Source: Dehalococcoidia bacterium (GTDB taxonomy: Bacteria > Chloroflexota > Dehalococcoidia > Lucifugimonadales > GCA-2712585). Taken from it: a stretch of 64,000 nt of DNA. Location: positions 2,356,615-2,420,614 of the forward strand of contig CBDCSX010000002.1 of the NCBI GenBank assembly GCA_965221895.1, given 5' to 3'. Shown here in pieces: positions 6,001 through 32,246 of this stretch (position 1 is the first letter of the stretch; every line of letters starts with the position of its first letter). The position numbers and the translations under genes were made by a program. The notes beneath the pieces are model-generated. The model did not search any database. It was not told the DNA's origin and saw only the letters and a list, made by a program, of their open reading frames with translations.

Positions 6001-9000
6001 CCGAACTTCGAGAATCCTCCGTTGTCGAAGACGACCTACACGGTCAAGATCCGGGTGCGGGACAGCTTGAACGCCGGGGGCACGGCGGACACTGGGTGGG
6101 ACGACACCGTCACGGTGACGATCAACCTGCAGAACGTGAACGAAGCTCCGACGTTCGGGGTTGTCGGGCCGTACACGCCTGATGAGAACCAGACTGCGGT
6201 GGGGACGATTCCGGTGGCGACGGACCCGGACGCAGGCGCCACGCTGACCTACGAGATGATGATGGGCGCAGGCGACGGCGACCACGCCCTGTTCACCTTC
6301 GTCCCGGGCACGAGGGCGCTCACCTTCAAGAATGCCCCGAACTTCGAGGCGAAAGACAGCTACACGGTCAGCATTCAGGTGCGGGACAGCTTGAACGCCG
6401 CCGGCGTTGGGGACACGGCCTGGGACGACACGGTCGTGGTGACGATCAACCTGCAGGACGTGAACGAGGAGCCGGAGTTCATGTCGCCCGCCACCACGGA
6501 CGTGGATGGAAACCCGGTGCCGCCGGCGCCCATCGCCACGGACACGCGGAGCTTCCGCGAGGATGCGGCGGCGGACGCGGCCATCGGCGCCCCCGTCGCG
6601 GCCACGGACCCCGACACCGAAGTCGACCCCCTGGACACACTGACCTACGCCTTGGCCGCCTCCGGGGACCATGCGTCCTTCGCCATCGACACCGCCACCG
6701 GGCAGCTGAAGACCAAGGCGGGAGTAACCTACGACTACGAGGCGAAGGACACCTACACGGTCACGGTGACCGTGCATGACGGCAAGAACGCCGCCGCCGC
6801 CGTGGACGCCGCCGTGGACGCCACCATTGATGTGACCATCAACGTAACGGACGCGCTCGAACGGTGGACCCCGCCCACCAATATGCACATCGACGTGGTA
6901 ACGCTGGCCAACAGGATCAGGGTCACTTGGACGGCCCCCGCGGCGGCGGATAACACGGGCAAGCCGGCCCTCACCGGCTACAAAGTGGAGTGGAGGCAGA
7001 AGTACAGCGCCAACGCTGCCTGGGCGCCGGACTGGGTCGACTTCCCGCGCAGTGGCCTCGGCACGACCACCGATATCACCACGTACACTGTTAATGCTGC
7101 CGATGGCACGCCCACAACGCATACCGTTGCCACGGGCGGCGGGCGCATCCATGAGGTGCGGGTGTGCTCCCTGAACGAGGACGGGGCGAAGAGCGCGGAC
7201 AATCCGAAGGCGGAACAGTGCGGCAGCTGGACCGGCAACGCTCTGCCGGCCTTCACGGAAGGCACAGAGGCGTCGCGCAGCGTGGCGGAGAACACCGCCG
7301 CCAACACCGACATCGGCCTGCCCGTCGGGGCCGCGGACTCCGACGCAGGGGACACCCTGGTCTACTCGATGACCCAAGGGACACACAGCGCGAAGTTCAC
7401 GATAGACACCGCCACCGGCCAGCTGAAGACCAAGGACCCGCTGGACCACGAGACGGCGGGCTCCTACGATGTCTATGTGAAGGTGAACGACGGAAACAAC
7501 GGCATAGACGGAATCATGGTGACGATCACGGTCACCGACGTAAACGAGCCGCCGGCGTTCGACGACGGGGCCGGCCCCACAACCCGGAGCGTGAGCGAAG
7601 GCGCGGCGGCCGGGGACGCCATCGGCGACCCGGTCGAGGCGACAGACCCGGACACCAAGGCCGACCCCCTGGACACGCTGACCTACGCGCTGGACACCAC
7701 CACCGGCGACCACGCTAACTTCGAGATCGATACGGGCACGGGCCAGCTGAAGGTCAAGGACGCCCTGGACTACGAGACGAAATCCAGCTACACCGTCACC
7801 GTGCAGGTGCGGGACAGCCTGAGCGCTGCGGGCGTGGCGGACACGGTTTGGGACGACACGATCGTGGTCAACATCTCGGTCGGCGACGTGAACGAGGCGC
7901 CGGTGTTCACCGCCGGGGCGGGCCCGCTCAACCGCAGCGTGGCAGAGAACGCGGGCGCCAACGCCAACGTGGGCCTTCCCGTCCCGGCCACGGACGTGGA
8001 CGACGGAGACTCGGTCACCTTATCGATGAGCGGCACGGGCGCGAACCTCTTCAGCATCGACTCCAACGGACAGATCAAGGCTAAAGCCTCGCTGGACTAC
8101 GAAACGGCGGTCTCCTACGCGATCACCGTCACGGCCACCGACACCAGCAGCGCGACGGACACGATCCTGGTGAACATCAGTGTCACCGACGTGGACGAGC
8201 CGCCGACCGCCCCAACGGGCGTCGAGGCCGGTGGGATAGCCAACGGGCTGCGGGTCACCTGGACGGCGCCGGTAATGACGAACAAGCCGGCCCTCGAAGG
8301 CTACGACGTGGAGTACGCCCTGCGCACCGCCGTCGCCGTCGGCGCGACCCCGGCAACCTGGGGCGCCGCGACCACAAGCGCAATCGGGGTCGTGGAAGCC
8401 TACGAGATAACCGGCCTCACCCCGGACTCGACCTACCGGGTGCGGGTGCGGGCCGAGAACGGCGAGGGCAAGGGCACCTGGTCGTCGTACGTCAACGGCG
8501 TGCCCAACGAGCCGCCCCTCATCAACGCGGCCCCGTCCTTCAGCGACGGCGCCAGCACGACGCGCAGTGTGGCGGAGAACACCGCAGCCGGGACCGCCAT
8601 CGGCAATCCCCTGACGGCCACGGACGCGGACGCCGGGGACACGCTGGTGTACGCCATCGACGGCGCCACCGGCGACTACGCCCACTTCGCCATCGACACG
8701 GGCACGGGCCAGCTGAAGGCCAAAGGCGCCCTGGACTACGAGAGCGGGACGACCAGCTACTCGATCACGGTGACCGTCTCCGACGGCAGCGGCGGGGCGG
8801 ACAGCATCGACGTGACCATCACCGTCACCAACGTGAACGAGAAGCCGGCCTTCCCCGCCGGCGCCCAGACGCTCACGCCGAACGAGAACCAGACCGCCGC
8901 GGGGACCGTCACGGCCGCCACCGACCCGGAGGGCGACACGCTGACCTACCGGATGCTTCCCGACACCGGCGACGACGACTCCTTCAACTTCAACGCGGGC

Positions 9001-12000
9001 ACGAGGACGCTCACCTTCAAGACTGCCCCGGACTTCGAGGCGAAGGACACCTACACGGTCAGCATCCAGGTGAAGGACAGCAAGAACGCCGCGGGCGCGG
9101 CGTCCCTGACCTGGGACGCCACGGTCGTGGTGACCGTCGACGTCCAGGACGTGAGCGAGCGGCCGTCGGCGCCCACCGGTCTCGGGGTACTCGCGGCGGC
9201 CAACGGGCTGCGGGTCTCGTGGACGGCGCCGGACATGACGGGCAAGCCGCCCGTCACCGGCTACAAGCTGCACTACAGCCGGCGCGATTTCGCCGCGGGC
9301 CCCGGCCAGTGGGGTAACTGGGTGGACCACGCCCACGCCGGGACCGGGACCTCGACCACGATAACCGGCCTCACCGCCGGCGATACCTACCGGGTGCAGG
9401 TGCGGGCCGCCAACGACGACGGCGACGGTTCCTGGACGTCGCCTGACACCGGCGTGCCCACCGCGCCGCCCGTCAGCAATGCCGTCCCGGTCTTCACCGA
9501 CGGCGCCAGCACGACGCGCAGCGTGGCGGAGAACACCGCAGCCGGGACCAACATCGGGTTGCCCATAGCAGCCACCGACGCGGACGCTGGGGACACGCTC
9601 GTTTACGCCATCGACGCCACCACCGGCGACCACGGCCACTTCGCCATCGACTGGGCCTCCGGTCAGTTGAAGACCAAGAGCGCCCTGGACTACGAGAGCA
9701 ATAACCGCTACACCGTCGTCGTGACCGTCTCCGACGGGAACGGCGGGACGGACAGCATCACCGTGACCATCGACGTCACCGACGTCGCGAACGAGACGCC
9801 GGGAGTGGTCCCGCCGCAGGCCAACCGCGCCCCGGCCTTCGACGAGGGATCGAGCGCCAGCCGGAGCGTGGCGGAGAACACGGCGTCCGGCCAGGACATC
9901 GGTCTCCCCTTGGCGGCCACAGACCCCGACAGCGACTCGCTGAGCTACGCGCTGGGCGGAACGGACTCGGGCCACTTCGCCCTCTCCGGCAACCGGCTCC
10001 GGACCAGCGGCGCCCTGGACTACGAGGGCAAGAGCTCCTACTTGGTGACCGTGACCGTCTCCGACGGCCGCGGCGGGACGGACACCATCGCCGTGACCAT
10101 CACCGTCACCAACGTGGACGAAGCGCCGACGGTCACGCCGACGCCGGTGGCGCCCACCGGGACCCTGGCCTTCGACAAGGTGGGCGTCGCCAGACGCACG
10201 GTTGACGCCTACGCTCCCGTCGGCACGGCCGTGGGCGCCCCGGTCACGGCGACCGTCTCCGCCGGCATGGCAGGGCCCTTCTATAGCGTCTACACCAGGT
10301 CGTCGCCTTTCACCGTGGACCGGCTGACCGGTCAACTGAGGACTGCCAGGAAGCTGGGGCCCGCGGACGAGTACACCATCCAACTGCTCGCTACGGACGG
10401 AAAGGGCAGGCTCGACGTTATCGGGGTCATCATCACGGTAACCGGAGGCCGCGCCAACAGGGACCCGGTCTTCCGGGAAGGCGCCTCGGCGACCCGCAGC
10501 GTGGTGGCGGGGTCCTCGCGGGGCGTCCGCGTGGGCAGGCCCGTCACGGCTACCGACCCGGATGGCGACGCCCTCTTCTACATGGTCAGTGGAGCGGACT
10601 CCAGCCACTTCAGCATCGGCAGCGGGAGCGGCCAGATCAAAGTCGGCAGGCCCCTGACCAAGAGCTCGTATTCGTTCGAGGTGGTCGTGGGCGACCTCAA
10701 GGGCGGAGTGGACGTCCTCGACATCACCATCACCGTCACCGCCGTGGACGCGCCGCCGGTGGCGACGACGCCCACACCGACGCCAAACCGCGCGCCGTCC
10801 TTCGACGAGGGCGCCGGCGCCAGCCGCAGCGTGGCGGAGAACACGCCGGCGGGCAGGAACATCGGCCTGCCCCTGGCGGCCACCGACCCCGACAGCGACT
10901 CGCTGACCTACGCGCTGGGCGGAACGGACTCCGGCCACTTCGTTCTCTCCGGCAACCGGCTGCGCACCAGCGGGGCCCTGGACTACGAGGGGGTCAAGAA
11001 CTCCTACGCGGTGACCGTGACCGTGAGCGACGGCCGCGGCGGGACGGACACCATCGACGTGACCATCACCGTCACCAACGTGAACGAGGCGCCGGTGGTG
11101 GCCCCGCCGCCGGCCAACCGCGCGCCGTCCTTCGACGAGGGCGCCAGCGCCAGCCGCAGCGTGGCAGAGAACACGCCGGCCGGGACCGACATCGGCCTGC
11201 CCCTGGCGGCCACCGACCCCGACGGCGACTCGCTGACCTACGCGCTGAGCGGAACGGACTCCGGCCACTTCGCTCTCTCCGGCAACCAACTGCGGACCAG
11301 CGGGGACTATGCGGGGGTCAAGAGCTCCTACTCGGTCACCGTGTACGTCTCCGACGGCCGCGGCGGGACGGACAGCATCGACGTGACCGTCACCGTCATC
11401 AACGTGGACGAGGCGCCGGTGGAGCCGACGCCGCAGGCCAACCGCGCCCCGTCCTTCGACGAGGGCGCCAACACGACGCGCAGCGTGGCGGAGAACACGG
11501 AGGCCGGCCAAGACATCGGCCTCCCCCTGGCGGCCACCGATCCCGACAGCGACTCGCTGACCTACGCGCTGAGCGGCGCCGACTCCGGCCACTTCGCCCT
11601 CTCCGGCAACCGGCTCCAGACCAGCGGAGCGCTGGACTACGAGGGCCAGAACTCCTATTCGGTGACCGTGAACGTGAGCGACGGGAATGGCGGCTCGGAC
11701 ACCACCGCCGTGACCATCACCGTCACCAACGTGAACGAGCCGCCGGGCGCGCTCCCGGGCTTAGCGGTGTTTGAAGAGGTCAACGGGATACGGGTCTCCT
11801 GGTCCGCGCCGGACATGACGGGAAAGCCGCCCATCACCGGCTACGACGTACAGTACAAGTTGGTCACGGCCACTGACTGGAACAATCACTCCCACAGCGG
11901 CACAGGCACAACGATCCAGGGCCTCACCGCCGGTTCCACGTACAACGTGCGGGTGCGGGCCAAGAACGATGAGGGGCACAGCGTCTGGGCCAGCGCACAG

Positions 12001-12324
12001 GCCACGCCCACGGCGCCCACGGCGCCGCCGGTTACGCCCGTGCCGCCGGACGCAATCACTAACCTCGAGGTGACCCCAGGGTGGTCCAAACTGGGGCTCA
12101 CCTGGAACATGCCGGACATGACGGGCAAACCGCCCATCACCCACTATGAGGTGCAGTACAAGCTGAGCATCGACAAATACTGGGGTGATTTCCCCCACGA
12201 CAGCACGGTCAGGAGGGTCACGATTGACTTCCTCGGCGGAGGCCTCTCCTATGACGTGCGGGTGCGGGCCGTCAACTCCGCGGGGAGTAGCGACTGGGTG
12301 TCGTCGAGCGGCACGACCAAGTAG
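1..12324 (+). CDS. Giant secreted/cell-surface repeat protein, 5' partial (GLUG-type beta-solenoid modules + cadherin-like + FN3 repeats)
   Basis: Frame 1 is open from nt 1 (GVIRNLGLVNATVTAKSVVG precedes the first start in the ORF track), so the gene continues upstream. Stop TAG at 12322-12324. The translation shows VGGLVG/GLUG-type repeats. By my manual count it has about 22 cadherin-like units (RSVAEN..ATDPD..LTY..LDYE..TVT.VNEAP) and 6 FN3-like units (W.AP.MTGKP.TGY...Y.VRVRA.N..G.S.W). There is no C-terminal hydrophobic anchor. Confidence 0.9.
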   Translation, partial: GVIRNLGLVNATVTAKSVVGPLAGLVAGTVESSYVTGSVTGSGNNVGGLVGSVPAGGRVLRSYTTASVSSSGTSVGGLAGFLGGTIKASYAAGNISGSGASVGGLVGEVNRGTVTASYARGEVQGANLVGGLVGRQRGSETVTNSYWDVTTSSIADDNDPETGVGKTTSELQAPTQTDGYAGIYANWNLDLDGDSNTDDDPWDFGTGSEYPALKVEWDGDNTPSAYEFGRQGRSAPAAPVQPPANAPPTFNAGYNASPNIAEGATAVGSYAATDPDSDSLTYAVTGTDAGEFAISGLGVLTLNNAANHETKEDYSISVTVHDGKNAAGSADTTVDITLAITVTVDDTLEPPTVPTSVGIVLAVNGLTVSWTAPVMPPTYPPLSDYDVQHRVRTSADGDSVTWGAWVAFAHVGTGTTAAITGLAAGSTYEVQVQAKNAEGSSPWTAAVNGVPAAPVGVNVDYDMDNDSFIEVRTLAQLNAIRWDLDADGAPVTANANDYALAFAGAVADMGCPDTDSDAATPNCLGYELEADLTFDENGDGQMTEAGDPTYWNGGLGWDPIGGNGSPFVAGKEFQGNGHTISNLFIDRPTENFVGLFGNLEGSISKVGLELVSVHGQDKVGALVGLNEGEVYWSYAAGILVQGRNRVGGLVGENGWRDGGSSNAGLIRGSYSTVNVIGNEEVGGLTGYNNRNSEVTASYAQGGSVSGSEKVGGLVGAAFRGSIQQSYAAAQIRGGKKRFHPLQGYNEGNTNNTPVTDSYGDHTIFGRLVTNFGKTTSELRTPAQTGGYAGIYANWNVDVDGDSNPDDPWDFGTSTEYPALKVDFNGDGAATVHEFGSQGRLPPVVQFSNEKPAFDDGQSTTRTIAENALAGAAVGAPVSATDPDKDRLTYRLVGTDGANFTIDETTGQIRVRTVLDYETTTSYTVIIETLDGEDDKGIPDSYFDAGVDDTITVTITVLNDAAETGSGSVDYDTDGNGLIEVDSLAKLNAMRWDMNGDGGFTHADYLTAFPTPEEGMGCPTVDHDLDGGAAGAAARVAAGGADGSYTAPQFTCKGYELTDDLTFDENTDGAITSADAAYWDGGEGWEPIGDDAKEDDAQRYNAVFEGGGHSISRLFINRPGSDYAGLFGAIGPHGSIRNVALLDADVTGRRSVGALAGMAYGITARVYATGSVSGSKAGGLAGELGGYVSTSYSNVAVSGSGNYVGGLVGLAQHAAVIKASYARGAVAGGSHDFVGALVGSNDGSITASYAVGLVSGTGGDRGGLVGANRRGTITDSYWDVTTTGIAGDSDAATGVGKTTSDLQTPTAYGSGSDIYANWNLNLDGDANTDDDPWDFGTTSEYPVLKVDFDNDKAPTFAEFGAQPRSALTPAQVTNGQPVFPAIIAAFTPAEGQTAAGTVPAATDPDNDSLTYEMMSGASDGDHALFNFNAGTRELTFKTAPDYEFPPLGKTTYTVKIRVRDSKNAVGTADTAWDTTATVTINLQKAVAGANGKPVFPVIDAFEPDENQTAVGTIPQATDPENDSLTYEMMSDAGDGDHALFTFVPGTRVLTFKAAPNYEATPTKTTYTVKIRVRDSLNAGGTADTGWDDTVTVTINLQNVNEAPTFGVVGPYTPDENQTAVGTIPVATDPDAGATLTYEMMMGAGDGDHALFTFVPGTRVLTFKTAPNFENPPLSKTTYTVKIRVRDSLNAGGTADTGWDDTVTVTINLQNVNEAPTFGVVGPYTPDENQTAVGTIPVATDPDAGATLTYEMMMGAGDGDHALFTFVPGTRVLTFKTAPNFENPPLSKTTYTVKIRVRDSLNAGGTADTGWDDTVTVTINLQNVNEAPTFGVVGPYTPDENQTAVGTIPVATDPDAGATLTYEMMMGAGDGDHALFTFVPGTRVLTFKTAPNFENPPLSKTTYTVKIRVRDSLNAGGTADTGWDDTVTVTINLQNVNEAPTFGVVGPYTPDENQTAVGTIPVATDPDAGATLTYEMMMGAGDGDHALFTFVPGTRVLTFKTAPNFENPPLSKTTYTVKIRVRDSLNAGGTADTGWDDTVTVTINLQNVNEAPTFGVVGPYTPDENQTAVGTIPVATDPDAGATLTYEMMMGAGDGDHALFTFVPGTRALTFKNAPNFEAKDSYTVSIQVRDSLNAAGVGDTAWDDTVVVTINLQDVNEEPEFMSPATTDVDGNPVPPAPIATDTRSFREDAAADAAIGAPVAATDPDTEVDPLDTLTYALAASGDHASFAIDTATGQLKTKAGVTYDYEAKDTYTVTVTVHDGKNAAAAVDAAVDATIDVTINVTDALERWTPPTNMHIDVVTLANRIRVTWTAPAAADNTGKPALTGYKVEWRQKYSANAAWAPDWVDFPRSGLGTTTDITTYTVNAADGTPTTHTVATGGGRIHEVRVCSLNEDGAKSADNPKAEQCGSWTGNALPAFTEGTEASRSVAENTAANTDIGLPVGAADSDAGDTLVYSMTQGTHSAKFTIDTATGQLKTKDPLDHETAGSYDVYVKVNDGNNGIDGIMVTITVTDVNEPPAFDDGAGPTTRSVSEGAAAGDAIGDPVEATDPDTKADPLDTLTYALDTTTGDHANFEIDTGTGQLKVKDALDYETKSSYTVTVQVRDSLSAAGVADTVWDDTIVVNISVGDVNEAPVFTAGAGPLNRSVAENAGANANVGLPVPATDVDDGDSVTLSMSGTGANLFSIDSNGQIKAKASLDYETAVSYAITVTATDTSSATDTILVNISVTDVDEPPTAPTGVEAGGIANGLRVTWTAPVMTNKPALEGYDVEYALRTAVAVGATPATWGAATTSAIGVVEAYEITGLTPDSTYRVRVRAENGEGKGTWSSYVNGVPNEPPLINAAPSFSDGASTTRSVAENTAAGTAIGNPLTATDADAGDTLVYAIDGATGDYAHFAIDTGTGQLKAKGALDYESGTTSYSITVTVSDGSGGADSIDVTITVTNVNEKPAFPAGAQTLTPNENQTAAGTVTAATDPEGDTLTYRMLPDTGDDDSFNFNAGTRTLTFKTAPDFEAKDTYTVSIQVKDSKNAAGAASLTWDATVVVTVDVQDVSERPSAPTGLGVLAAANGLRVSWTAPDMTGKPPVTGYKLHYSRRDFAAGPGQWGNWVDHAHAGTGTSTTITGLTAGDTYRVQVRAANDDGDGSWTSPDTGVPTAPPVSNAVPVFTDGASTTRSVAENTAAGTNIGLPIAATDADAGDTLVYAIDATTGDHGHFAIDWASGQLKTKSALDYESNNRYTVVVTVSDGNGGTDSITVTIDVTDVANETPGVVPPQANRAPAFDEGSSASRSVAENTASGQDIGLPLAATDPDSDSLSYALGGTDSGHFALSGNRLRTSGALDYEGKSSYLVTVTVSDGRGGTDTIAVTITVTNVDEAPTVTPTPVAPTGTLAFDKVGVARRTVDAYAPVGTAVGAPVTATVSAGMAGPFYSVYTRSSPFTVDRLTGQLRTARKLGPADEYTIQLLATDGKGRLDVIGVIITVTGGRANRDPVFREGASATRSVVAGSSRGVRVGRPVTATDPDGDALFYMVSGADSSHFSIGSGSGQIKVGRPLTKSSYSFEVVVGDLKGGVDVLDITITVTAVDAPPVATTPTPTPNRAPSFDEGAGASRSVAENTPAGRNIGLPLAATDPDSDSLTYALGGTDSGHFVLSGNRLRTSGALDYEGVKNSYAVTVTVSDGRGGTDTIDVTITVTNVNEAPVVAPPPANRAPSFDEGASASRSVAENTPAGTDIGLPLAATDPDGDSLTYALSGTDSGHFALSGNQLRTSGDYAGVKSSYSVTVYVSDGRGGTDSIDVTVTVINVDEAPVEPTPQANRAPSFDEGANTTRSVAENTEAGQDIGLPLAATDPDSDSLTYALSGADSGHFALSGNRLQTSGALDYEGQNSYSVTVNVSDGNGGSDTTAVTITVTNVNEPPGALPGLAVFEEVNGIRVSWSAPDMTGKPPITGYDVQYKLVTATDWNNHSHSGTGTTIQGLTAGSTYNVRVRAKNDEGHSVWASAQATPTAPTAPPVTPVPPDAITNLEVTPGWSKLGLTWNMPDMTGKPPITHYEVQYKLSIDKYWGDFPHDSTVRRVTIDFLGGGLSYDVRVRAVNSAGSSDWVSSSGTTK
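4684..6315 (+). repeat. Near-perfect 336-bp (112-aa) tandem array, ~4.9 units, inside giant gene 1
   Basis: Five identical antisense ORFs in the track start at 4692, 5028, 5364, 5700 and 6036, spaced 336 bp apart. The unit NVNEAPTFGVVGPYTPDENQ...TVTVTINLQ occurs 4 times identically in the translation, plus partial flanking copies. The only difference I found is a synonymous third-position change: G at 4803/5139/5475 versus T at 5811/6147. Confidence 0.95.
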
Positions 12325-12565: not shown

Positions 12566-15500
12566 ATGAACCCCTGCTTTCGCCGGGTTAGTGGTGCAGG
12601 ACGCCGGGGATTAGCGGGCTTCGGTCTCCTTCTGGCGGCTCTGGCCGTTGCAACGATGCTGCTCTCTCAATCCCCGGCGGCAGCACAGGATGCCGTTGCT
12701 GACTACGACGCCGACGGCGACGGTCTCATAGACGTGGGCAAGCTGGAGCAGCTCAGCGCAATCCGTTGGGATCTCGACGGCGACGGCGCGCCGGAACCGG
12801 CCAATGCCGCTGACTACCAAGCCGCCTTCCCCAGCCCCGTTCCGGGGATGGGTTGTCCAGATACCGACAGCGCCCCCGACACACCCAGCTGTATTGGGTA
12901 CGAGCTGGCAGGGGACCTCGACTTCCAGGACGACTCCAGCTACACAACCGCGTCCAACAAAACCGGTTGGACTCCTGGCATCTCTATTTTCAGTCCCAGC
13001 GCGGGCTGGGAGCCCATCGGCGCCGATACCGGGAAGTTCAGCGCTGCCTTCAAGGGCAACGGCCGCATCATTTCGAACCTGTACATCAATCGCCCCGCCA
13101 CCGACTATATCGGCCTGTTTGGCGCTATCGATGCCTCCGCGGAGGTTAACGGCGTGCGCTTGAGCGGCGGCACGGTGTTGGGGCAGAACTACACCGGCAG
13201 CCTGGCCGGGTCGAACGAGGGCAAAGTCAGCGAGTCCCACTCCACGACCGGCGTAACAGGAGGGGCAGACGGTGGGCACGCCGGTGGTCTGGTGGGGCTG
13301 AGTAGCGGGAGCGGCGCGCTCATCGAAAAGAGCGCTTACCTGGGCAGGGTGAGCGGCTCTGGCAATGGGGTGAACGTGGGCGGGCTGGCCGGCGCTGCTA
13401 TGGGCGGCGCCGTCAGCGACTCCCACGCCGCCGGCAGCGTCACCAGCACGGAAAGCGCTGGGGATGCGGCCATAGGCGGCCTGATCGGACACCTTGGAGA
13501 AGAAGGCGGCTCATCGGCCACGGTCAGCAGGAGCTATGCCACCGGCCTGGTGACGGCCGCTGTGACCACCGGGACCGCAAGCGTGGGCGGCTTGATTGGA
13601 AGCGTTGCGGCGGACGCTGCTGCCGTCGACAGCTACTGGGACACGGCAACAGCGGCCCAGGCCGCCAGCGCGGCCGGTGGCGGGAAGACCACCGCGGAAC
13701 TGCAGACCCCCACCACCGCCGGCGGCATCTATCAGAACTGGGACGCCAATGTGTGGGACTTTGGGACAACCGCCCAGTATCCGGCGTTGAAGGTGGACTC
13801 CAACGGCGACGGGATGGCCGGCGTGGCGGAGCTCGGCCCCCAGGTGCGCGCCTTCGCGGATTACGACGTGGACGATGACGGGCTCATCGAAGTCGCCACG
13901 CTTGACCAGTTGAATGCCCTACGCTGGGACCTGGACGGTGACGGCACGACGACGGCAGCGGGTTACGTCGAGACCTTCCCCTCCGGCATCAACGATATGG
14001 GTTGCCCCACTGCGGGCTGCACTGGGTACGAGCTAACGCGGAGCCTGGACTTCGATGATGCCGCCAGCTATGGGGATCAGTCGAACAAGAGCAAGTGGAC
14101 ATCCGGCCGCGGCTGGCTCCCCATCGGGGACAGCAGCGCCGGCAATTTCGCCGCCACCTTCCACGGCGGCGGAAACACGATTTCCAACCTGTTCATCGAC
14201 CGCCCCGAAGTTGAGTACGTTGGGCTCTTCGGGAATACCCACAGGGACACGGAGATTCGGAACGTCGGGCTGATCGGTGGGCGAGTCATCGGCGGATTCT
14301 ACGTTGGTGCTCTCGTGGCGCACAACCAGGGCGCCTTGAGCGCCGCATACTCCACCGCCAATGTGATCGGGGTGGGGAAGACCACCTACGTGACTAAGTC
14401 GGAGGCCGGCCTCAGGGTTAGGACCCCAGCGGGGAAGACCAGCTACGTGGGTGGGCTGGTGGGCGCCAACTCCGGCGCCATCGAAAGCAGCTACGCCCAA
14501 GGCGATGTTACCGCAGAGTCCATAGAACGGGGCACAGCCGGCGGGCTGGTGGGTAGCAGCAACAGAACGGTTACCGACTCTTACGCCACCGGAACAGTGA
14601 CGGTAGAAGCAAGCGAATTGGTGATCGCGGGAGGACTGATAGGACTCAACCACCGGGCCATCGTCAACAGCTACGCCACTGGCGCAGTCGTGGGAGCCGG
14701 GTTCAAGGTGGGCGGGTTGGTGGGACATGGCAACGGCGCCGCGGCCAACAGCTACTGGGACACCGTCACCAGCGGTCGGGCCGCCAGCCGAATGGGCGAA
14801 GGGAAAACCACCCGCGAACTGAGAACGCCCACCACCCACGCCGGCATCTACGCCAACTGGAACGCCGACACCGACAACGCAGACAACGACGGTGACACAG
14901 CCACGGGCCGGGAGGTGGTATGGGACTTTGGGACCAACATCCAGTATCCGGCGTTGGCATTGGACTTTGACGGGGACGGCAACGTCACCGCGGCGGAATT
15001 CAATGCCCGCGGGGCCCAGCCGCCCGTGGAGTTTCTGGACGGCACCGCGGCTCCCCGCAGCGTCCTCGAGGATACGCCCGCCGCCCAAGACATCGGCGCG
15101 CCGGTGGGCGCGGTCGACGCCGATGGCGACGCGTTGACGTATACCATGAACGGCGCGGACGCGGGCCACTTCACCATCGACGCCAACACTGGCCAGTTGC
15201 AGACCAGGGACCCGGTGGACTACGAGACCACGAGTTCCTACTCCCTCACCGTAACGGCCAGCGATGGCAGCGGCAACACCAAAGACATCCCGGTAACCAT
15301 TCAAGTGATTGATGACGCCATCGACTATGACACAGATGACGATGGCCTCATTGAGATAGATACCCTAACCGAGCTCCACGCCATCCGCTGGGACCTGAGC
15401 GGCAACGGGCTGCCGGCGCCTGCCCATGCCGCCTTGTATCTCGCCACGTTCCCCAACCCCGTCATCTACATGGGCTGTCCCACCGACGACACCACTGACG

Positions 15501-18500
15501 CAAATGGGGATGGAAATTACGTCGACCGTACCGACGATGCGGACCCGAATGACTGCACAGGGTATGAGCTGACCGCCGATTTGGACTTCGATGAGAACGG
15601 CGACAAGGCGATAACCGACGCAGACAGCGCCTGGTGGAACGGTGGAAGCGGCTGGGAGCCCATCGGCGGCGGGGACGACAAGTTCGGCGGTGTTTTCGAC
15701 GGTGGCGGCAACACCATAGCCAACCTGTACATCAACCGCAGCAGCGCCGACGACATCGGGCTGTTTGGCGCGACCGACACGACGGCTGAAATCCGCAACG
15801 TGGGGCTTGAGGGCGGCAGCGTGACGGGCCAAACCAACGTGGGGAGCCTCGTGGGAACCCACGAGGGCAAGCTGAGCTCTGTTTACTCCACCGCTTCCGT
15901 GAGCGGCGCGGCAGAAAATGGCTATGCAGGCGGCCTGGTGGGGGCGCTCAAGAACAGCAACGTGGGTCTGCACCACGCCATTATAGAAAAGAGCTACTTC
16001 GCCGGCGAGGCCGCCGCTGCAGGGAGCGGCAGCGCCGTCGGCGGGCTGGCCGGCGGCAACCTTGGCGACCATATCGGCGGACTGATCCGTGATTCGTATT
16101 CCACGGGCACGGTTTCCAACAATGAGACCACCGGACCGAGTATGGCCGGCGGGTTGGTCGGCAACAACTTGGGGAAGATAAGCACCAGCTACGCCACCGG
16201 CGTGGTGACGGGCGCCTTTGCTGTCGGCGGACTCACCGGGCGCAACACCGGCGTTATCGTCAGCTTTACCCCAAGCTTCTACGACAAGATCACCACCGGC
16301 CAGAGCGGCGGCCCGGAAGCCAAGACCACCCGGGAGATGCGAACGCCGTTCGGCACATCCTGGAGCGACAAAGGCATTTTCCGGTCATGGTCGCGAAGCT
16401 GGGACCTGGGGACAAACATCGAGTATCCGGCCCTCATGGCAGACTACGATGGCGACGGCATGGCGACGTGGCAGGAGTTCGGAGACCAGCGCCAGCCCGC
16501 CCCTCCCCTCGAGTTCCTCGACGGCACAGCCGCCTTCCGCACCGTTCCGGAGGGCGCCGCTTCGGGGCAAGCCATAGACCCGCCCGTCGACGCAAAAGAC
16601 GCAGACGGAGACGCGCTGACCTATGCCTTGAGCGGCGCCGACCAGGGCCATTTCGCCATCGTCGCAGGCAGCGGCCAGCTGCAGACGTCGGGTTCGCTCG
16701 ATCGGGCAGTCAAAACCTCCTACGAGGTGACCGTCACCGTCGCTGATGGCAATGGCAATTCGCGCAGCATCCCGGTTTCCATCACCGTGACGGCCCCGCT
16801 CGTGGCGCCAAACCCGCGGAACAAGCCGCCGGCATTCAGCAGACGCGGTGACAGCCGGAACATCGCCGAGAACGTTCCGCAAGACACCGCCGTCGGGGCG
16901 CCGGTCGTTGCCGTCGACCCGGATGGCGACACGCTCACCTACACGCTCAGACCGCTTCAAGCCGATGCCCACGCCGAATACTTCAGCATCGCGTTCGACA
17001 CCGGGCAGTTGCGCACGAACGCCCCGTTGGACTACGAGACCAGGAACTCGTACCTGATGTTTGTGACGGCCACCGATGGCAACGGCGCCACCGACACCGT
17101 ACGGATATACGTCTACGTGAACGACGTAACCGTGGAGGGGCAACTGCCGGATGAAATTGTCGGCGATTACGACCGCGACAACGACGGCCTGATTGAGATA
17201 ACGAACCTGGAACAACTCGACGCCATCCGCTATGACCTCAATGGATCTGGAATCGGCGACGGCGGCGCGGGGAAGGCAGGTTTCAACCCCGCTTTCCCCA
17301 ACCCCGTCGCATCAATAGGGCCGGCGCACATCGGCTGCGCACGCAGCGACGGTACGGCTTCGGTGTGCCGGGGCTTCGAGTTGACCAGAGACCTGGACTT
17401 CAATGACGACGAAAGCTACGCCGACCCAGCGGCCCACAGGGAGGCTTGGACATCGGGCGCAGGCTGGCAGCCGATTGGGACACTGAGCAGGGCGTTCACC
17501 GCCATTTTCGAGGGCAACGGCAAGACTATATCCAACCTGTTCATCAACCGCCCCACCGGAACGCATATCGGACTATTCGGGCGCCTTACAAAAACCAGCC
17601 CAATCCGCAGATTAGGATTAGTGGGCGGCAGCGTGACTGGGTTAACCAACGTTGGAAGTTTTGCCGGGTCGAGTCAACGCACATATCGACCGAGCCAACC
17701 AAACAACGGCGGCATCTATAAGTCTTACTCCTCAGTAGACGTCACCGGCGGCCCGGGTTTCGAGGCCCGTGTTGGCGGCATGATCGGGCTCCTCCACGAG
17801 GGCAGGGTAATGGAGAAGTGCTATTACACCGGCACCGTGCGCGGGTCCGGCGCAAACAGCGAAGTGGGAGGCTTGGTTGGCGCCAGCAACGGCAGCGTCA
17901 ACGACTGTTACTTCGCCGGCGACGTAGAAAACACTCAGGATAGCGCAAACAACCTCCTGGGCGGCTTGGTGGGAAAGAACTTGGTTGCCGCGGCTATACG
18001 GGACAGCTACTCGATAGGCCGCACAGCCCAGAGTACGGTATCGGATTCCGGCGGAGGCCTCACCGGTCACAACGACAGCGCATCGGTCCACAACAGCTAC
18101 TGGAACACGGAGACCACCGGTCAAGCCGTTTCCAGGAAGGGCGCCGGGGACGGGGCTGGCGAGGGCAAGACCACCGCCGAGCTGCAGTCGCCCACCGGTC
18201 TTACCGGTCCCTACGAACGGTGGAACAACGAGCACCGTGGAGCAGTCTGGGACTTTGGCGCCGACGATCAGTATCCCGCATTGGTGGTGGACTTCGATGG
18301 CGACGGCACGCCCACGGTCTCCGAATTCGGCCGGCAGAGGCGGGCCGTCGAAGCGGCGAACGGACCGCCAACCTTCGACGAGGGGGCGACGGCGACGCGC
18401 GAGGTGGTGGAGAACACCGACGCCGACGCCGCCATCGGCAACCCCCTCTCCGCCACCGACCCCGACGCGGGCGCATCGCTAACCTATGGCCTTGAGGCGT

Positions 18501-21500
18501 CGGACGACCACGTCCACTTCGCCATAGACACCGCCACCGGGCAGCTGAAGACCAAGGCGGGAGTAACCTACGACTACGAGACGAAGGACACCTACACCGT
18601 CACGGTGACCGTGCATAACGGCAAGAACGCCGCGGGCGCCGCGGACGCCACCGTGGACGACACCATCGACGTGACCATCAACGTAACGGACGCGAGCGAG
18701 CGGTGGACCCCGCCCACCGGTCTGACCATCGATGGGAGAGCGGAGCCCGGCACGTTCAAGGTCCGTTGGACGGCGCCCGCGGCGGCGGACAACACGGGCA
18801 AGCCGGCCCTCACCGGCTACAAAGTGCAGTGGAGGCAGAAGCTCAACGCCATCCTCCCCTGGGCGCCGGACTGGATCGACTTCCCGCACACGGGCCTCGG
18901 CGTGACCGCCGTTATCACCGGCAGCACTGCTACGGATGGCACCGTATATACCATTACCGGCCGTTCCGGCTCGCGCATATCGGCGGTGCGGGTGTGCTCC
19001 CTGAACACGGACGGGGCGAAGCACACGGAGGATCCGAAGGTGGAACAGTGCGGGGCCTGGATCGGCAACGCCGTGCCGGCTTTCGCGGAACCCATAACTG
19101 CGTCGCGCAGCGTGGCGGAGAACAGCCCCCCCAACACCAACATCGGCCCGCCCGTCGTGGCCGTGGACACCGACGCAGGGGACACCCTGGTCTACTCGTT
19201 GATCAAGTTGACCAAAGAGACACACAGCGCGAGGTTCACGATAGACAGCGCCACCGGCCAGCTGAAGACCAAGGCCCCGCTGGACCACGAGGGGGTGAAG
19301 AATTCCTACCTCCTCGAGGTGAACGTGAGCGACGGCAACAACGGCGCGAACAGCATCCTCGTCCTCATCACGGTCACCGACGTGAACGAGCCGCCGGAGT
19401 TCATGTCCGCCGCCTACACGGACCCTGACGGAAACCCGGTGCTCCCGGCGCCCATCGCCACGGCCACGCGGAGCTTCCGGGAGGATGCGGCGGCGGACGC
19501 GGCCATCGGCGGTCCCGTCGCGGCCACAGACCCCGACACCAAAGCCGACCCCAGGGACACGCTGACCTATGCGCTGGACACCTCGTCCGGGGACCATGCG
19601 TCCTTCACGATAGACACCGCCACCGGGCAGCTGAAGACCAAGGCGGGAGTGACCTACAACTACGAGGCGGTCAAGAACTCCTACACCGTCACCGTGCAGG
19701 TGCGCGACAGCAAGAACGCCAACGGCGACGCCGACACCGCGTGGGACGCCACCATCGAGGTGACGATCACCGTGACCGACGTCAACGAGCCCCCAACCTT
19801 CACCGACGGGGTCAGCAAGCGCATCTCGGTGAAGGAGGGCGCCACATCCGCGGGAATCGTGGCCGCCACCGACCCCGAGGATGACATGCTGACCTACGCC
19901 CTGGACACCACAACCGGCGACCACGCCGACTTCACCATCGTCCCCGGCACGGGCGCGTTGACCCTCAACGTTCCGGCGAGTTTCAGCAAGCTCAGCTACA
20001 CCGTCGTCATCCAGGTGCGCGATAGCTTGAACGCCGCCGGCGCTGGCGACACCGTGTGGGACGCCACCATTGAGGTGACGATCACCGTAACCAACGTGAA
20101 CGATCCGCCAACCTTCAACGAGGGGCCGACGGCGACGCGCGAGGTGGCGGAGAACACGGTGGCCGAAACCGCCATAGGGAACCCGATAGCGGCCACTGAG
20201 GTAGATACGCGCGACACCCTCGTCTACAGTCTGGCCGCAACCAGCGACTACGCCCACTTCGCCATCGACACCGGCACCGGGCAATTGAAGACGGGTGGCG
20301 CGCTGAACTACGAGGCGGCCAAGAACACCTACACCGTCACGGTGCAGGTGAGCGACGGCAAGGACGCCGACGACAACCCCGACGTCAGCGTCGATGACAG
20401 CATCGCCGTGACGATCACCGTCACCGACGTGAACGAGCCGCCGGACAGGCCATCGACGCCGACCGTTTCGGCGGCTTCGGCCAGCAGCCTGACCGTGAGG
20501 TGGAGCGCCCCGGCGAACACCGGCCCGGCGATCACGGGCTACGACTACCGGTACAAGAAGACTTCGGAGAACAGTTGGATCGAGGTCACCGGCGGCTCGG
20601 CGAGCGCTCTCTTGACGGCCGTCATCGCGTCGCTCGACGGCGGCACATCCTATGACGTGCAGGTGCGGGCAACCAATCCCGAGGGCACTGGCCGCTGGTC
20701 CCCCACTACCAGCGCCACCACCGGGACCGTCGCGCCCGAGGCTGTCGACGACCTTGCGGCCACGGCGACGAGCGCCAGCGCCATCAACCTCGCCTGGACG
20801 GCGCCCGGCGACGGCGGCAGCGCCATCACCCGCTACCGACTGGAACGGAAGACGGGGGGCGGGAGCTTCTCCCCCGTCTCGTCGAGCATCGCGGCGGACG
20901 CCACGAGCCATACAGACAGCGGCCTGAACGCCGGGACAACCTACACCTACCGGATACGCGCGGTGAACGCCGTGGGCAACGGGGGCTGGTCCAGCGAGGC
21001 CAGCGCCACTACCGGGAGCACCATGCCGGGAGCGCCAACCAGCCTGGGAGCGGCGGCCAACGGGCAGACGCAGATCGATCTCTCGTGGACGGCCCCGTCC
21101 AGCGACGGCGGCGCAGCCATTTCCGGCTACAAGATTGAGGTGTCCGACGACGGCGGCACGAGCTGGGCGAATCTGGTCACCAACACCAGCTCCGCCGCGA
21201 CGACGTACCGCCACACCGGCCTGACCGCCGACGCGACGCGGCACTACCGCGTGTCGGCGATCAACGCGGCGGGCACGGGCGCCGCCTCCAGCGCGGCCAG
21301 CGCCACCACGGCCGCTCCCGACGTGCCGGGAGCGCCGACGGGTCTGGGAGCGACGGCAAACGGCCAGACGCGGATCAACCTCACGTGGACGGCGCCCGGC
21401 GACGGCGGCAGCGCCATCACCCGCTACCGACTGGAACGGAAGACGGCATCCGGGAGCTACAGCGTCGTCTCGTCGAGCATCGCGGCCAACGCTACGAGCT

Positions 21501-27226: not shown

Positions 27227-27278
27227 CTAGTTGAATGCCATCCTCCCATTGAGATATCATTTCTGCTCAGGAGGGCAG

Positions 27279-28202: not shown

Positions 28203-28242
28203 CTCAAAAGCTGAAAGTCCGCCGGGTCCCCTTCGAACTAAT

Positions 28243-30275: not shown

Positions 30276-30278
30276 CAG

Positions 30279-31280: not shown

Positions 31281-31306
31281 ACGGGCGTCGTATCAACGGA
31301 GGGCCG

Positions 31307-32173: not shown

Positions 32174-32246
32174 CGTATCAAAAACAGCGGAGACAGCGGG
32201 AGAAAATGCTTAAGTTGGCATCGGTCATACAGAGAGGGGTTTCGGC

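What the first reader, a model, noticed from the sequence alone, without database searches (positions are those of the whole stretch)
12698..18340. Recurrent ~400-500-aa 'supermodule' combining a dockerin/EF-hand-like Ca loop pair, a Cys pair and a GLUG solenoid
Giant gene 2 has four copies, starting at roughly aa 45, 432, 915 and 1530. Giant gene 1 has at least three, at nt 1-700 (partial), about 1375-2510 and about 2900-4080.

Every copy follows the same order:
1. DYD.D.DGLIE(V/I)..L.QL.A(I/L)RWDL.GDG
2. MGCP...C.GYEL..DL(D/T)F
3. GW.PIG...F.G.F.G(N/G)G.TISNL(F/Y)I.R
4. GLFG...IRNVGL
5. A run of (V/A)GGL(V/I)G repeats
6. SYWD..T.G...GKTT.EL(Q/R).PT...GIY..W
7. WDFGT..(Q/E)YPAL.VDF(D/N)GDG

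The fixed order and the conserved Cys pair suggest a discrete structural or functional unit, not loose repeats. The terminal DGDG motifs suggest Ca-dependent rigidification or binding.
Basis: seen in the sequence. Interest (0 to 1): 0.6.

Follow-up and report, generated by a model that had tools for sequence, protein, structure and literature searches.

The report
Capped GLUG beta-helix module in giant surface proteins
The repeated unit of about 385 amino acids is real: it is a self-contained beta-helix domain with its own start and end caps, used many times in two giant secreted, adhesin-like proteins of a Dehalococcoidia bacterium. It belongs to a very large but barely described branch of the known GLUG beta-helix family, so it is useful to catalogue but not a new kind of biology.

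Summary
The window holds six complete copies and one cut copy of a module of about 380-395 aa, at the stated places. All seven motifs appear in the same order. Copies are 39-58% identical, and the most divergent pair still gives BLASTP E = 4e-58.

The module has three parts:
- **N-cap (about 130 aa):** two DxDxDG loops, a near-universal cysteine pair closing a loop of 2-38 residues, and GWxPIG...GNGxTISNLFI.
- **Core:** GLUG coils of about 27 aa each, in variable number.
- **C-cap:** SYWD...GKTT.EL...WDFG..YPxL.

AlphaFold2 gives a confident beta-helix (pLDDT 84, pTM 0.85). Its best structural matches are 3n6z (Bacteroides BACOVA_03286) and the beta-helix of streptococcal IgA1 protease.

The three parts behave as one unit: in 150 proteins found with the N-cap alone, 823 of 845 N-caps are followed by a core.

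The family is very large. The N-cap alone finds 16,756 clusters, and at least 568 loci in reference genomes, mostly Dehalococcoidia but spanning six phyla. Pfam and NCBIfam model only the 28-aa GLUG motif.

The dockerin and EF-hand resemblance is limited to loops of about 12 residues. The terminal DFDGDG..E loop is an optional appendix, present in 28% of C-caps.

The most likely role is a Ca2+- and disulfide-stabilised rigid binding or spacer module of surface fibres. That role is inferred, not shown.

The parts
1..12324 (+). Giant ORF g1 (4107 codons in the window; its 5' end lies outside). It carries one cut and two complete modules, followed by cadherin, Big_9, PKD and FN3 domains.
1..693 (+). 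g1 module 0, cut by the window edge (core 1-426, C-cap 427-693).
   Evidence: core E = 2.5e-42, C-cap E = 1.3e-38
1375..2511 (+). g1 module 1 (N-cap 1375-1797, GLUG core 1798-2247, C-cap 2263-2511). Cys pair at 1531-1533 and 1567-1569.
2902..4083 (+). g1 module 2 (N-cap 2902-3387, core 3394-3810, C-cap 3817-4083). The Cys pair at 3049-3051 and 3151-3153 closes a 33-residue loop.
12566..22735 (+). Giant ORF g2 (3389 aa): signal peptide, four modules interspersed with cadherin-like domains, then cadherin and FN3 arrays and a short C-terminal tail.
12566..12688 (+). Signal-peptide-like N-terminus of g2: basic stretch, hydrophobic run GLAGFGLLLAALAVA, then AAAQ just before the first module.
   Evidence: read from the translation; hydrophobic run found; no signal-peptide predictor was run
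12695..13843 (+). g2 module 1 (N-cap 12695-13132, core 13136-13618, C-cap 13628-13843). Cys pair at 12854-12856 and 12890-12892.
13856..15007 (+). g2 module 2, the copy that was modelled. N-cap 13856-14242, with DxDxDG loops at 13859-13894 and 13928-13945 and Cys pair at 14003-14005 and 14018-14020. Core 14246-14743. C-cap 14747-15007, with an EF-type loop D800-E811 at 14963-14998.
15320..16489 (+). g2 module 3 (N-cap 15320-15778, core 15782-16255, C-cap 16268-16489). The Cys pair at 15476-15478 and 15554-15556 closes a 25-residue acidic loop that contains a further DANGDG motif.
17162..18337 (+). g2 module 4 (N-cap 17162-17587, core 17594-18082, C-cap 18089-18337). Cys pair at 17336-17338 and 17366-17368.
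15010..15316 (+). Cadherin-like domain between g2 modules 2 and 3. It is not part of the module.
   Evidence: (sequence), for the family type in g2
16492..17158 (+). Two cadherin-like domains between g2 modules 3 and 4. They are not part of the module.

Best explanation
Each copy is one autonomous extracellular domain: a right-handed beta-helix built from GLUG coils of about 27 aa, closed at both ends by dedicated caps.

**N-cap (about 130 aa).** It starts with a DxDxDG loop that runs into a short strand and a helix (LIEV..L.QL.AIRW). A second DxDGDG loop follows, then a loop of variable length closed by the conserved cysteine pair (most likely a disulfide). The strand CxGYEL and the GWxPIG...F.G.F.GNGxTISNLFI turn then seed the first coil.

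**C-cap.** SYWD..T.G...GKTT.EL...GIY..W...WDFG..YPxL terminates the helix. In this subfamily a single 12-residue EF-type loop follows (DFDGDGxxTxxE).

**Context.** Two neighbouring giant secreted proteins string these domains together with cadherin-like, Big_9, PKD and FN3 domains. They are very acidic and have no enzyme domain.

**Proposed mechanism.** The modules are rigid building blocks, stiffened by Ca2+ and a disulfide, in long cell-surface fibres. The flat faces of the beta-helix would bind a partner, either protein or glycan, in the way the homologous beta-helix of streptococcal IgA1 protease binds the Fab of IgA1.

**What is shown:** the domain boundaries, the fold, the relationship to GLUG, 3n6z and the IgA1 protease N-terminal domain, unit-like inheritance, and the size of the family.

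**What is inferred:** secretion, the disulfide, Ca2+ binding, and an adhesive rather than purely spacer role.
For: **Domain anatomy**
- Full-length alignment of the seven copies and of 24 modules with C51/C56 invariant.
- Part-HMM coordinates in the window.

**Fold**
- Pfam GLUG scores 25-45 bits against a cut-off of 20.5 in all six full copies.
- The module profile hits IgA1 protease chains 6xjb, 6xja and 7jgj at E = 1.3e-12 over module positions 135-285.
- AlphaFold2 gives pLDDT 83.9 and pTM 0.85, with regular three-stranded coils from residue ~100 to ~303 and a confident N-cap (pLDDT 84-97).
- Foldseek best hit is 3n6z: E = 1.5e-5, 327 aligned columns out of 339 residues, TM 0.58. IgA1 proteases 7uvl, 7uvk and 7jgj follow.
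- The IgA1 protease N-terminal beta-helix folds on its own, and the N-terminal domain containing it binds the IgA1 Fab (PMC7695701).

**Behaves as a unit**
- All 120 homologues have the order N-core-C.
- The 79 genome loci are strictly (N-core-C)n, with up to about six tandem copies.
- In 150 representatives found with the N-cap only, 823 of 845 N-caps are followed by a core and 796 cores by a C-cap.
- Coil period peaks at 26-28 aa over 3226 coils. Module length ranges from 337 to 585 aa through coil number.

**Disulfide**
- The Cys pair is present in 787 of 798 N-caps.
- g1 has only 6 Cys in 4107 aa and g2 has 12 outside the signal peptide. All occur as closely spaced pairs.

**Extracellular adhesin context**
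- Signal-peptide-like N-terminus.
- Cadherin, FN3, Big_9 and PKD arrays.
- Acidic residues outnumber basic ones by about 2 to 1, and there is no HExxH.

**A real gene evolving fast, as surface proteins do**
- 93% nucleotide identity and an intact frame over 5.3 kb in two Dehalococcoidia MAGs.
- Ka/Ks of about 0.5 overall, with the C-caps the most conserved part.
Against: - No experiment or structure shows Ca2+ binding. The N-terminal loops lack the acidic residue at position 12 of canonical EF-hand or dockerin loops, and no Ca-binding family is matched above threshold.
- The last ~60 residues, including the EF-type loop, are modelled at pLDDT of only about 50. That loop is absent from about 72% of family members, so it cannot be essential to the module.
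- No ligand is known for any GLUG domain outside IgA1 protease. The literature calls the motif 'of unknown function' (PMC9723798).
- The outward-facing positions of the coils are not conserved, so there is no family-wide binding site. This fits a passive spacer equally well.
- No anchor to the cell was identified.
Confidence: 0.6

Rival explanations
1. Passive extender. The module only adds rigid length, about 3-4 nm per beta-helix, to project the cadherin and FN3 parts away from the cell. It binds nothing itself.
For: - Only the inward-facing coil positions (V-G-G-L-V-G, I, S-Y-A) are conserved, while outward positions vary freely.
- Coil number varies widely between modules, giving 337-585 aa.
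- Modules are often strung in direct tandem.
Against: - The only characterised relative, the IgA1 protease beta-helix, lies in the domain that contacts the substrate.
- Ka/Ks is highest in the cores. That fits surfaces under changing selection better than an inert rod.
- Neither point is decisive.
Confidence: 0.25
2. Enzymatic beta-helix. The module would be a polysaccharide lyase, hydrolase or epimerase, like the pectate-lyase-fold enzymes and phage tailspikes.
For: The general fold class is shared. Pectate lyases, polygalacturonases and tailspikes appear low in the Foldseek lists.
Against: - Those matches have E > 0.4, probability of 0.25 or less and TM < 0.3.
- No polar residue of the helix face is conserved. 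The invariant residues are Gly, Leu, Val, Ser, Tyr and Trp, plus the loop Asp residues.
- No carbohydrate-active Pfam family is hit.
Confidence: 0.05
3. Dockerin-like docking. The N-terminal pair of DxDxDG loops would be a true dockerin that plugs, with Ca2+, into a cohesin-like partner to assemble a multi-protein surface complex.
For: - Two Asp-rich loops lie about 21 residues apart, each followed by a helix.
- One copy gives a weak Dockerin_1 hit at E = 0.6.
Against: - The Pfam dockerin score is 10.8 bits against a cut-off of 22.9, and only one of six copies hits.
- hhalign probability is 0.4%.
- The segment is modelled at pLDDT 90-97, and it is never found without the core (823 of 845 N-caps).
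- No cohesin was seen among the neighbouring genes scanned.
Confidence: 0.05
4. Self-association module. The beta-helices of neighbouring cells or fibres would zip together, as in Ag43, to drive aggregation or biofilm formation.
For: It is a beta-helix surface domain present in many copies. Ag43 and TibA appear in the Foldseek lists.
Against: - Those matches have probability of 0.02 or less.
- There is no autotransporter barrel or TPS domain.
- No evidence bears on oligomerisation either way.
Confidence: 0.05

Closest known systems
PDB 3n6z, BACOVA_03286 of Bacteroides ovatus ('putative immunoglobulin A1 protease', structural-genomics entry, no function tested)
   Same: It is the best structural match. 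Foldseek gives E = 1.5e-5, with 327 aligned columns covering nearly the whole 339-residue chain, TM 0.52/0.58, rmsd 3.8 A and 21% identity. It is a small beta-helix whose repeats were recognised as distant GLUG repeats (PMC4021314).
   Different: - There is no detectable sequence match with the module or N-cap profiles.
- Whether it has the DxDxDG loops, the Cys-closed loop or the WDFG..YPxL end could not be checked, because coordinates and alignment were not available.
Beta-helix of the N-terminal domain of Gram-positive M26 IgA1 metalloproteases (S. pneumoniae 6xja, 6xjb, 7jgj; G. haemolysans 7uvk, 7uvl)
   Same: - The GLUG coils are homologous (profile E = 1.3e-12 over module positions 135-285; Foldseek probability 1.0).
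- It is a small, independently folding beta-helix without protruding subdomains, in the domain that binds the IgA1 Fab.
   Different: - Only the core aligns, not the caps.
- g1 and g2 have no HExxH, no M26 catalytic domains, no G5 and no LPXTG anchor.
- The NCBIfam ZmpA score is 19.7 bits against a cut-off of 3000.
Pfam PF07581 GLUG motif
   Same: All six complete copies score above the gathering threshold, with 1-4 matched stretches each.
   Different: The Pfam model is a 28-residue motif. It describes neither the domain boundaries nor the N-cap and C-cap that make up about 55% of the module.
DxDxDG calcium-binding loops as in EF-hands, dockerins and related folds (recalled from the literature, not tested here)
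   Same: - Loop 1 (D-Y-D-x-D-x-D-G-L-I-E) and loop 2 (D-L-D-G-D-G) fit the motif.
- The C-terminal loop D-F-D-G-D-G-x-x-T-x-x-E fits the canonical 12-residue EF loop, including Glu at position 12, in all seven copies.
   Different: - There is no helix-loop-helix pair and no domain-level similarity.
- The loops are embedded in a beta-helix cap.
Giant Ca2+-dependent bacterial surface adhesins built from cadherin-like or Ig-like extender domains (general class; comparison from background knowledge)
   Same: They share giant size, a signal peptide, highly acidic composition, long arrays of cadherin, Big_9 and FN3 domains, and near-identical tandem repeats.
   Different: - No RTX or type-I secretion signal and no known anchor was identified here.
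- Interspersed capped GLUG beta-helices are not a described feature of those adhesins.

Membership tests
GLUG-motif beta-helix domain (PF07581; fold of 3n6z and the IgA1 protease N-terminal domain) | Pfam GLUG HMM above the gathering score | tested here: met
   25.4-44.8 bits against a cut-off of 20.5 in all six complete copies.
GLUG-motif beta-helix domain (PF07581; fold of 3n6z and the IgA1 protease N-terminal domain) | Beta-helix fold that superposes on solved GLUG-type helices | tested here: met
   AlphaFold2 pLDDT 83.9 and pTM 0.85. Foldseek gives 3n6z at E = 1.5e-5 and TM 0.58, and IgA1 proteases at probability 1.0. Sequence profile E = 1.3e-12.
M26 IgA1-specific metalloprotease (ZmpA, ZmpB, ZmpC) | HExxH zinc site and M26 catalytic domains | tested here: not met
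   No HExxH anywhere in g1 or g2. Pfam finds only cadherin, FN3, Big_9 and PKD outside the modules. ZmpA scores 19.7 bits against a cut-off of 3000.
M26 IgA1-specific metalloprotease (ZmpA, ZmpB, ZmpC) | LPXTG cell-wall anchor and G5 domain | tested here: not met
   The only LPxTG string is internal, at g1 aa 2986. There is no G5 hit.
Type I dockerin (PF00404) | Dockerin HMM above the gathering score, or profile similarity over both repeated segments | tested here: not met
   10.8 bits against 22.9, and in only one of six copies. hhalign probability is 0.4% with 12 aligned columns.
Type I dockerin (PF00404) | A cohesin partner | not tested
   Only the ten ORFs downstream of g2 were scanned, and none is a cohesin. 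No genome-wide search was possible.
EF-hand domain (pair of helix-loop-helix motifs) | EF-hand HMMs above the gathering score, or a paired helix-loop-helix | tested here: not met
   The best score is 15 bits against cut-offs of 25-30. hhalign probability is 3.8% over 13 columns. The model shows no entering helix before loop 1.
EF-hand domain (pair of helix-loop-helix motifs) | Canonical 12-residue loop with Asp at positions 1, 3 and 5, Gly at 6 and Glu at 12 | tested here: inconclusive
   The pattern is present in the C-terminal loop of all seven copies. It is modelled at pLDDT of about 50 and is found in only 205 of 724 C-caps in the family. The N-terminal loops lack an acidic residue at position 12.
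Ca2+-binding DxDxDG loop | Actual Ca2+ coordination | not testable with these tools
   The sequence pattern is present in 749 of 798 N-caps for loop 1. No metal-aware modelling or experiment was available.
Autotransporter or two-partner-secretion beta-helix adhesins (Ag43, TibA, FHA) | Beta-barrel translocator or TPS domain, and fold similarity | tested here: not met
   No such Pfam domain was found. Foldseek probability is 0.02 or less.
Pectate-lyase-fold enzymes and phage tailspikes | Close fold match and conserved catalytic residues on the helix face | tested here: not met
   Foldseek gives E > 0.4 and TM < 0.3. No polar residue is conserved in the coils.

The most novel reading that the evidence does not exclude
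The capped GLUG module is a host-interaction cassette. It is exchanged horizontally among unrelated bacteria that share sponge and coral holobionts, and it serves as a Ca2+-dependent recognition or adhesion device for the host matrix.

**Points in favour**
- It occurs in Chloroflexota, Acidobacteriota, Actinomycetota, Latescibacterota, Binatia and Gammaproteobacteria.
- Identity across phyla (40-45%) is about the same as between copies within one protein.
- Some carriers are named sponge symbionts, for example Oxydemutator.
- GC3 of the two giant genes is 0.82-0.90 against about 0.71 for neighbouring housekeeping genes, and an IS transposase lies 3.4 kb downstream.

**Points against**
- The habitat of most carriers, and of this window, is not documented in anything I could read.
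- The Cys-closed loops are not hypervariable between close relatives.
Probability: 0.2. Interest if true: 0.6.

Novelty: new variant of a known kind. Interest (0 to 1): 0.33.

Why it matters
- **Annotation gap.** A domain family found in at least 16,756 protein clusters (at 50% identity), often 5-14 times per protein, is annotated today only through a 28-residue motif. More than half of each module is therefore left as unannotated sequence. Defining the true unit would improve annotation of thousands of giant proteins in Dehalococcoidia and other uncultured lineages. That unit is N-cap with two DxDxDG loops and a Cys-closed loop, GLUG coils, and a WDFG..YPxL C-cap.
- **Experimental handle.** It also gives experimenters a clean construct boundary for the first biochemical test of what GLUG beta-helices bind.
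- **Possible wider relevance.** If the family proves to be enriched in sponge and coral symbionts, it would join ankyrin, cadherin and FN3 repeats as a candidate symbiosis factor.
- **Limits.** It does not change any current concept. The fold and the adhesin-like context are known.

Tried and rejected
- **C-cap alone against the 5.8-billion-protein index.** The 91-aa query gave only one candidate and was uninformative. This reflects a limitation of the word index for a short query, not absence. One capped search was wasted.
- **A2 profile against PDB sequences.** It lost the IgA1 protease hits and returned only chance lipase matches. The smaller A1 profile had found them.
- **N-cap profile against PDB.** It returned only chance xylanase matches to GW.P.G..F.GNG, so there is no solved relative at sequence level.
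- **NCBIfam.** Nothing beyond a 20-bit ZmpA fragment.
- **Exact-sequence look-ups of g2 and of the window's GpsA.** Neither is on record, so the source sample could not be identified.
- **Paper searches for MAG accessions.** No hits, so the sponge origin of the closest relatives could not be documented.
- **Hypothesis that the Cys-closed loop diversifies fast.** Rejected at short range: the loops are nearly identical in the two MAGs at 93% nucleotide identity.
- **Hypothesis that the C-terminal EF loop exists to form a junction with the next module.** Not supported. It is about as frequent whether or not another module follows (34% versus 26% and 25%).
- **'GxGKTT' as a P-loop.** Rejected on inspection. 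The spacing does not fit GxxxxGK[ST], and the context is extracellular.

Full report
**1. What is in the window**

Two very long ORFs lie head to tail on the + strand. g1 spans 1..12324, and its start is outside the window. g2 spans 12566..22735 and encodes 3389 aa.

g2 begins with a signal-peptide-like sequence: a basic stretch, the hydrophobic run GLAGFGLLLAALAVA, then AAAQ.

- four times in g2, starting at aa 46, 432, 920 and 1534;
- twice completely in g1, plus one copy cut by the window edge.

HMMs built from the three parts of the alignment were run over all six reading frames. They find exactly these seven copies and nothing else in the 64 kb.

The copies align end to end at 39-58% identity. 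The most divergent pair still gives BLASTP E = 4e-58.

One correction applies. The unit is about 380-395 aa. The longer distance between some starts is filled by cadherin-like domains that are not part of the unit.

**2. Anatomy of the module**

*N-cap, about 130 aa*
- DYDxDxDGLIEV (DxDxDG loop, then a strand), followed by the helix L.QL.AIRW.
- A second loop, DLDGDG.
- ..AFP...MGC-(loop)-CxGYEL..DLDF.
- GWxPIG...F.G.F.GNGxTISNLFI.

*Core*
- GLUG coils of the form xVGGLVGxNxGxIxxSYAxGxVxG.
- Over 3226 coils from 150 family members, the period peaks at 26-28 residues.
- Only the inward-facing positions are conserved.
- Coil number varies, so modules range from 337 to 585 aa.

*C-cap*
- SYWD..T.G...GKTT.EL..PT...GIY..W.
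- An optional acidic insert. Its length is bimodal at about 4 or about 13 residues.
- WDFG...YPxL.

*Appendix*
- In all seven window copies a 12-residue loop follows, with the canonical EF pattern D-x-D-x-D-G-x-x-x-x-x-E (for example DFDGDGNVTAAE).
- In the wider family only 205 of 724 C-caps carry it, regardless of what follows.
- It is therefore an appendix specific to a subfamily. The module proper ends at YPxL.

*Cysteine pair*
- It is invariant in a 24-module alignment and present in 787 of 798 complete N-caps.
- It closes a loop of 2-38 residues, with length modes at 3-4, 11 and 34.
- Cysteines are otherwise almost absent. g1 has 6 in 4107 aa and g2 has 12 outside the signal peptide, all in closely spaced pairs.
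- This is the signature of disulfides in a secreted protein. The bond itself is inferred.

**3. Fold and relatives**

- Pfam recognises only the GLUG motif, above its cut-off in all six full copies. EF-hand and dockerin models stay far below theirs.
- NCBIfam gives nothing except a 20-bit fragment of ZmpA.
- A profile of the seven copies hits the IgA1 metalloproteases of S. pneumoniae and G. haemolysans at E = 1e-12 to 6.5e-8. The match covers only module positions 135-290, which are the coils.
- AlphaFold2 with 7 sequences gave pLDDT 78.
- With 24 sequences it gave pLDDT 83.9 and pTM 0.85. The N-cap is confident, and the regular three-stranded coils run up to residue ~303 and the GKTT.EL helix. 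The last ~60 residues stay near pLDDT 50.
- Foldseek against the PDB ranks 3n6z first. This is BACOVA_03286, a structural-genomics 'putative IgA1 protease'. The match has E = 1.5e-5, 327 columns of a 339-residue chain, and TM 0.58. The IgA1 proteases follow.
- Pectate lyases, tailspikes, Ag43 and pentapeptide-repeat proteins appear only as noise.
- The viral library holds similar uncharacterised beta-helices in phages and giant viruses.

In the literature:
- The 3n6z repeats have been described as distant GLUG repeats (PMC4021314).
- The IgA1 protease beta-helix is part of an independently folding N-terminal domain that binds the IgA1 Fab and gates the active site (PMC7695701).
- GLUG proteins elsewhere are called 'of unknown function', possibly adhesive (PMC9723798).

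**4. Is it one unit?**

Yes.

| Data set | Result |
|---|---|
| 120 best homologues of one module | Every protein shows N-cap, then one or more core matches, then C-cap |
| 79 loci from reference genomes | Pattern is strictly (N-core-C)n, up to about six tandem units within 7 kb |
| 150 best representatives from an exhaustive search with the N-cap profile alone | 845 N-caps; 823 followed by a core; 796 cores followed by a C-cap; only 20 irregular transitions |

In that N-cap-only search of 1.84 billion representatives, the best hits are proteins of 1.2-7.4 kaa carrying up to 14 N-caps each.

**5. Dockerin or EF-hand?**

Profile-profile comparison of the N-cap gives:
- 3.8% probability against a calmodulin EF-hand pair.

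In both cases only the loop of 12-13 residues aligns.

The N-terminal loops have Asp at positions 1, 3 and 5, Gly at 6 and a hydrophobic residue at 8, but no conserved acidic residue at 12. They are best described as generic DxDxDG loops built into a beta-helix cap.

Ca2+ binding is plausible, given the acidic protein and the Ca-dependent cadherin neighbours, but it is untested.

**6. Distribution and evolution**

*Family size*
- The N-cap profile finds 16,756 representative clusters at E <= 1e-3, 6,566 at <= 1e-10 and 1,639 at <= 1e-30.
- In one genome per GTDB species, at least 568 loci encode a relative.

*Taxonomy of the best 79 loci*
- Most are Dehalococcoidia or Chloroflexota MAGs.
- Others are Acidimicrobiia, Latescibacterota, Acidobacteriota (Vicinamibacterales, Terriglobia, Versatilivoraceae), Binatia and Gammaproteobacteria (Oxydemutator).
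- All show 38-50% identity, the same range as between copies inside g2.

*Habitat*
- Oxydemutator is a named sponge symbiont (PMC11685487).
- Some isolate names suggest sponge or coral metagenomes.
- I could not document the habitat of the window or of its closest relatives.

*Closest relatives*
- Two Dehalococcoidia MAGs, OZ244924.1 and CBDCTF010000007.1, carry the same gene at 93% nucleotide identity over window 12697-18022, with an intact frame.
- Ka/Ks is about 0.5 overall and 0.30-0.78 per module.
- C-caps are the most conserved part, with 5-8% amino-acid differences. Cores are the most variable, with 9-17%.
- This is a functional but fast-evolving surface gene.

**7. Function**

Outside the modules, g1 and g2 contain only cadherin, Big_9, PKD and FN3 domains. 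There is no HExxH and no catalytic family. Acidic residues outnumber basic ones by about two to one.

My best reading, at confidence 0.6, is that each module is a rigid beta-helical block in a long surface fibre. It would be stiffened by Ca2+ and a disulfide and would offer helix faces for binding, by analogy with the IgA1 protease beta-helix.

The rivals are:
- **Pure spacer role (0.25).** This cannot be separated from the best reading with sequence data.
- **Enzyme (0.05).**
- **True dockerin (0.05).**
- **Ag43-like self-association (0.05).** The tests available argue against these last three.

**8. Novelty and verdict**

The fold and the GLUG motif are known, and so is the adhesin-like context. 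What is not described is the complete domain, with its specific caps, the two DxDxDG loops, the Cys-closed variable loop and the optional EF appendix. The size of this branch is also not described.

I file it as a new variant of a known kind, with modest interest (0.33). Its main value is for annotation and as a defined construct for the first binding studies of GLUG beta-helices.

The most novel reading still open is a horizontally exchanged host-interaction cassette of sponge and coral symbionts. I give it a probability of about 0.2.

Noticed in passing
window 4151-6474 (g1): There are 6.9 tandem copies of a 336-nt (112-aa) cadherin-like repeat at 93% matches. Several copies are identical at protein level (APTFGVVGPYTPDENQTAVGTIPVATDPDAGATLTYEMMMGAGDGDHALFTFVPGTRVLTFKTAPNFENPPLSKTTYTVKIRVRDSLNAGGTADTGWDDTVTVTINLQNVNE). 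This points to recent amplification or gene conversion, and the array may be an assembly-sensitive or length-variable region.
   Followed up: partly
window 10718-11746 (g1): A second tandem array, with a 324-nt period, 3.1 copies and 83% matches, made of cadherin-like or Big_9-like domains.
   Followed up: no
window 22598-22732 (C-terminus of g2): g2 ends in a short tail, YDFNNNGLIERGEALAAVFDYFADLITKQQALGVVFRYFAS. It is a DxNxNG loop followed by helices carrying a repeated DYF/RYF motif. No Pfam family matches it. Nearly the same tail ends only 2 of 150 other module-bearing giant proteins, P0145 and P0224. It could be a sorting, anchoring or docking signal.
   Followed up: partly
window 1-22735 versus 27231-33389: Third-codon-position GC is 0.90 in g1 and 0.82 in g2, against 0.70-0.73 in the adjacent housekeeping genes (OTCase, Der, PlsY, GpsA, PrmA, DnaJ). 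This is a clear compositional anomaly. It is compatible with foreign origin or with biased gene conversion in repeats.
   Followed up: partly
window 26099-27052: An IS-type DDE transposase (DDE_Tnp_1 with DUF772, E = 8e-31) lies about 3.4 kb downstream of g2, between the giant-gene block and the housekeeping genes. A single-module homologue, P0009, is also flanked by several transposases in its contig.
   Followed up: no
window 22769-24253: A 494-aa ORF immediately after g2 has a sub-threshold DUF11 match (E = 1e-4, 23 bits against a cut-off of 24.6). DUF11 (PF01345) also occurs in several module-bearing homologues, including P0010, P0014, P0051 and P0054. It may be a further surface protein of the same locus.
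   Followed up: no
window 7165-7221 (g1 aa 2389/2407) and 18995-19051 (g2 aa 2144/2162): The only other cysteines of both giant proteins form a conserved pair, VRVCSLN.DGAK....PK.EQCG.W. It sits in an FN3-like domain with the motif W.PDW.DFP..G that is shared by g1 and g2. This is probably another disulfide in a domain that was not examined.
   Followed up: no
window 17819-17908 (g2 module 4 core): Two cysteines, C1752 and C1781, lie 29 residues (one coil) apart. They replace the Ser of the SY ladder on adjacent coils (EKCYYTG and NDCYFAG). They could form an inter-coil disulfide unique to this copy.
   Followed up: no
window 14375-14440 (g2 module 2, module residues ~175-196): A 22-residue insertion, GVGKTTYVTKSEAGLRVRTPAGK, interrupts one coil of module 2 only. 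It is modelled at low confidence (pLDDT 55-77) and contains a second GKTT string.
   Followed up: no
window 15010-15316: The cadherin-like domain between modules 2 and 3 shows Ka/Ks of 1.76 against the closest MAG (102 codons, Ka 0.073, Ks 0.041). The sample is too small to claim positive selection, but it is the highest value in the region.
   Followed up: no
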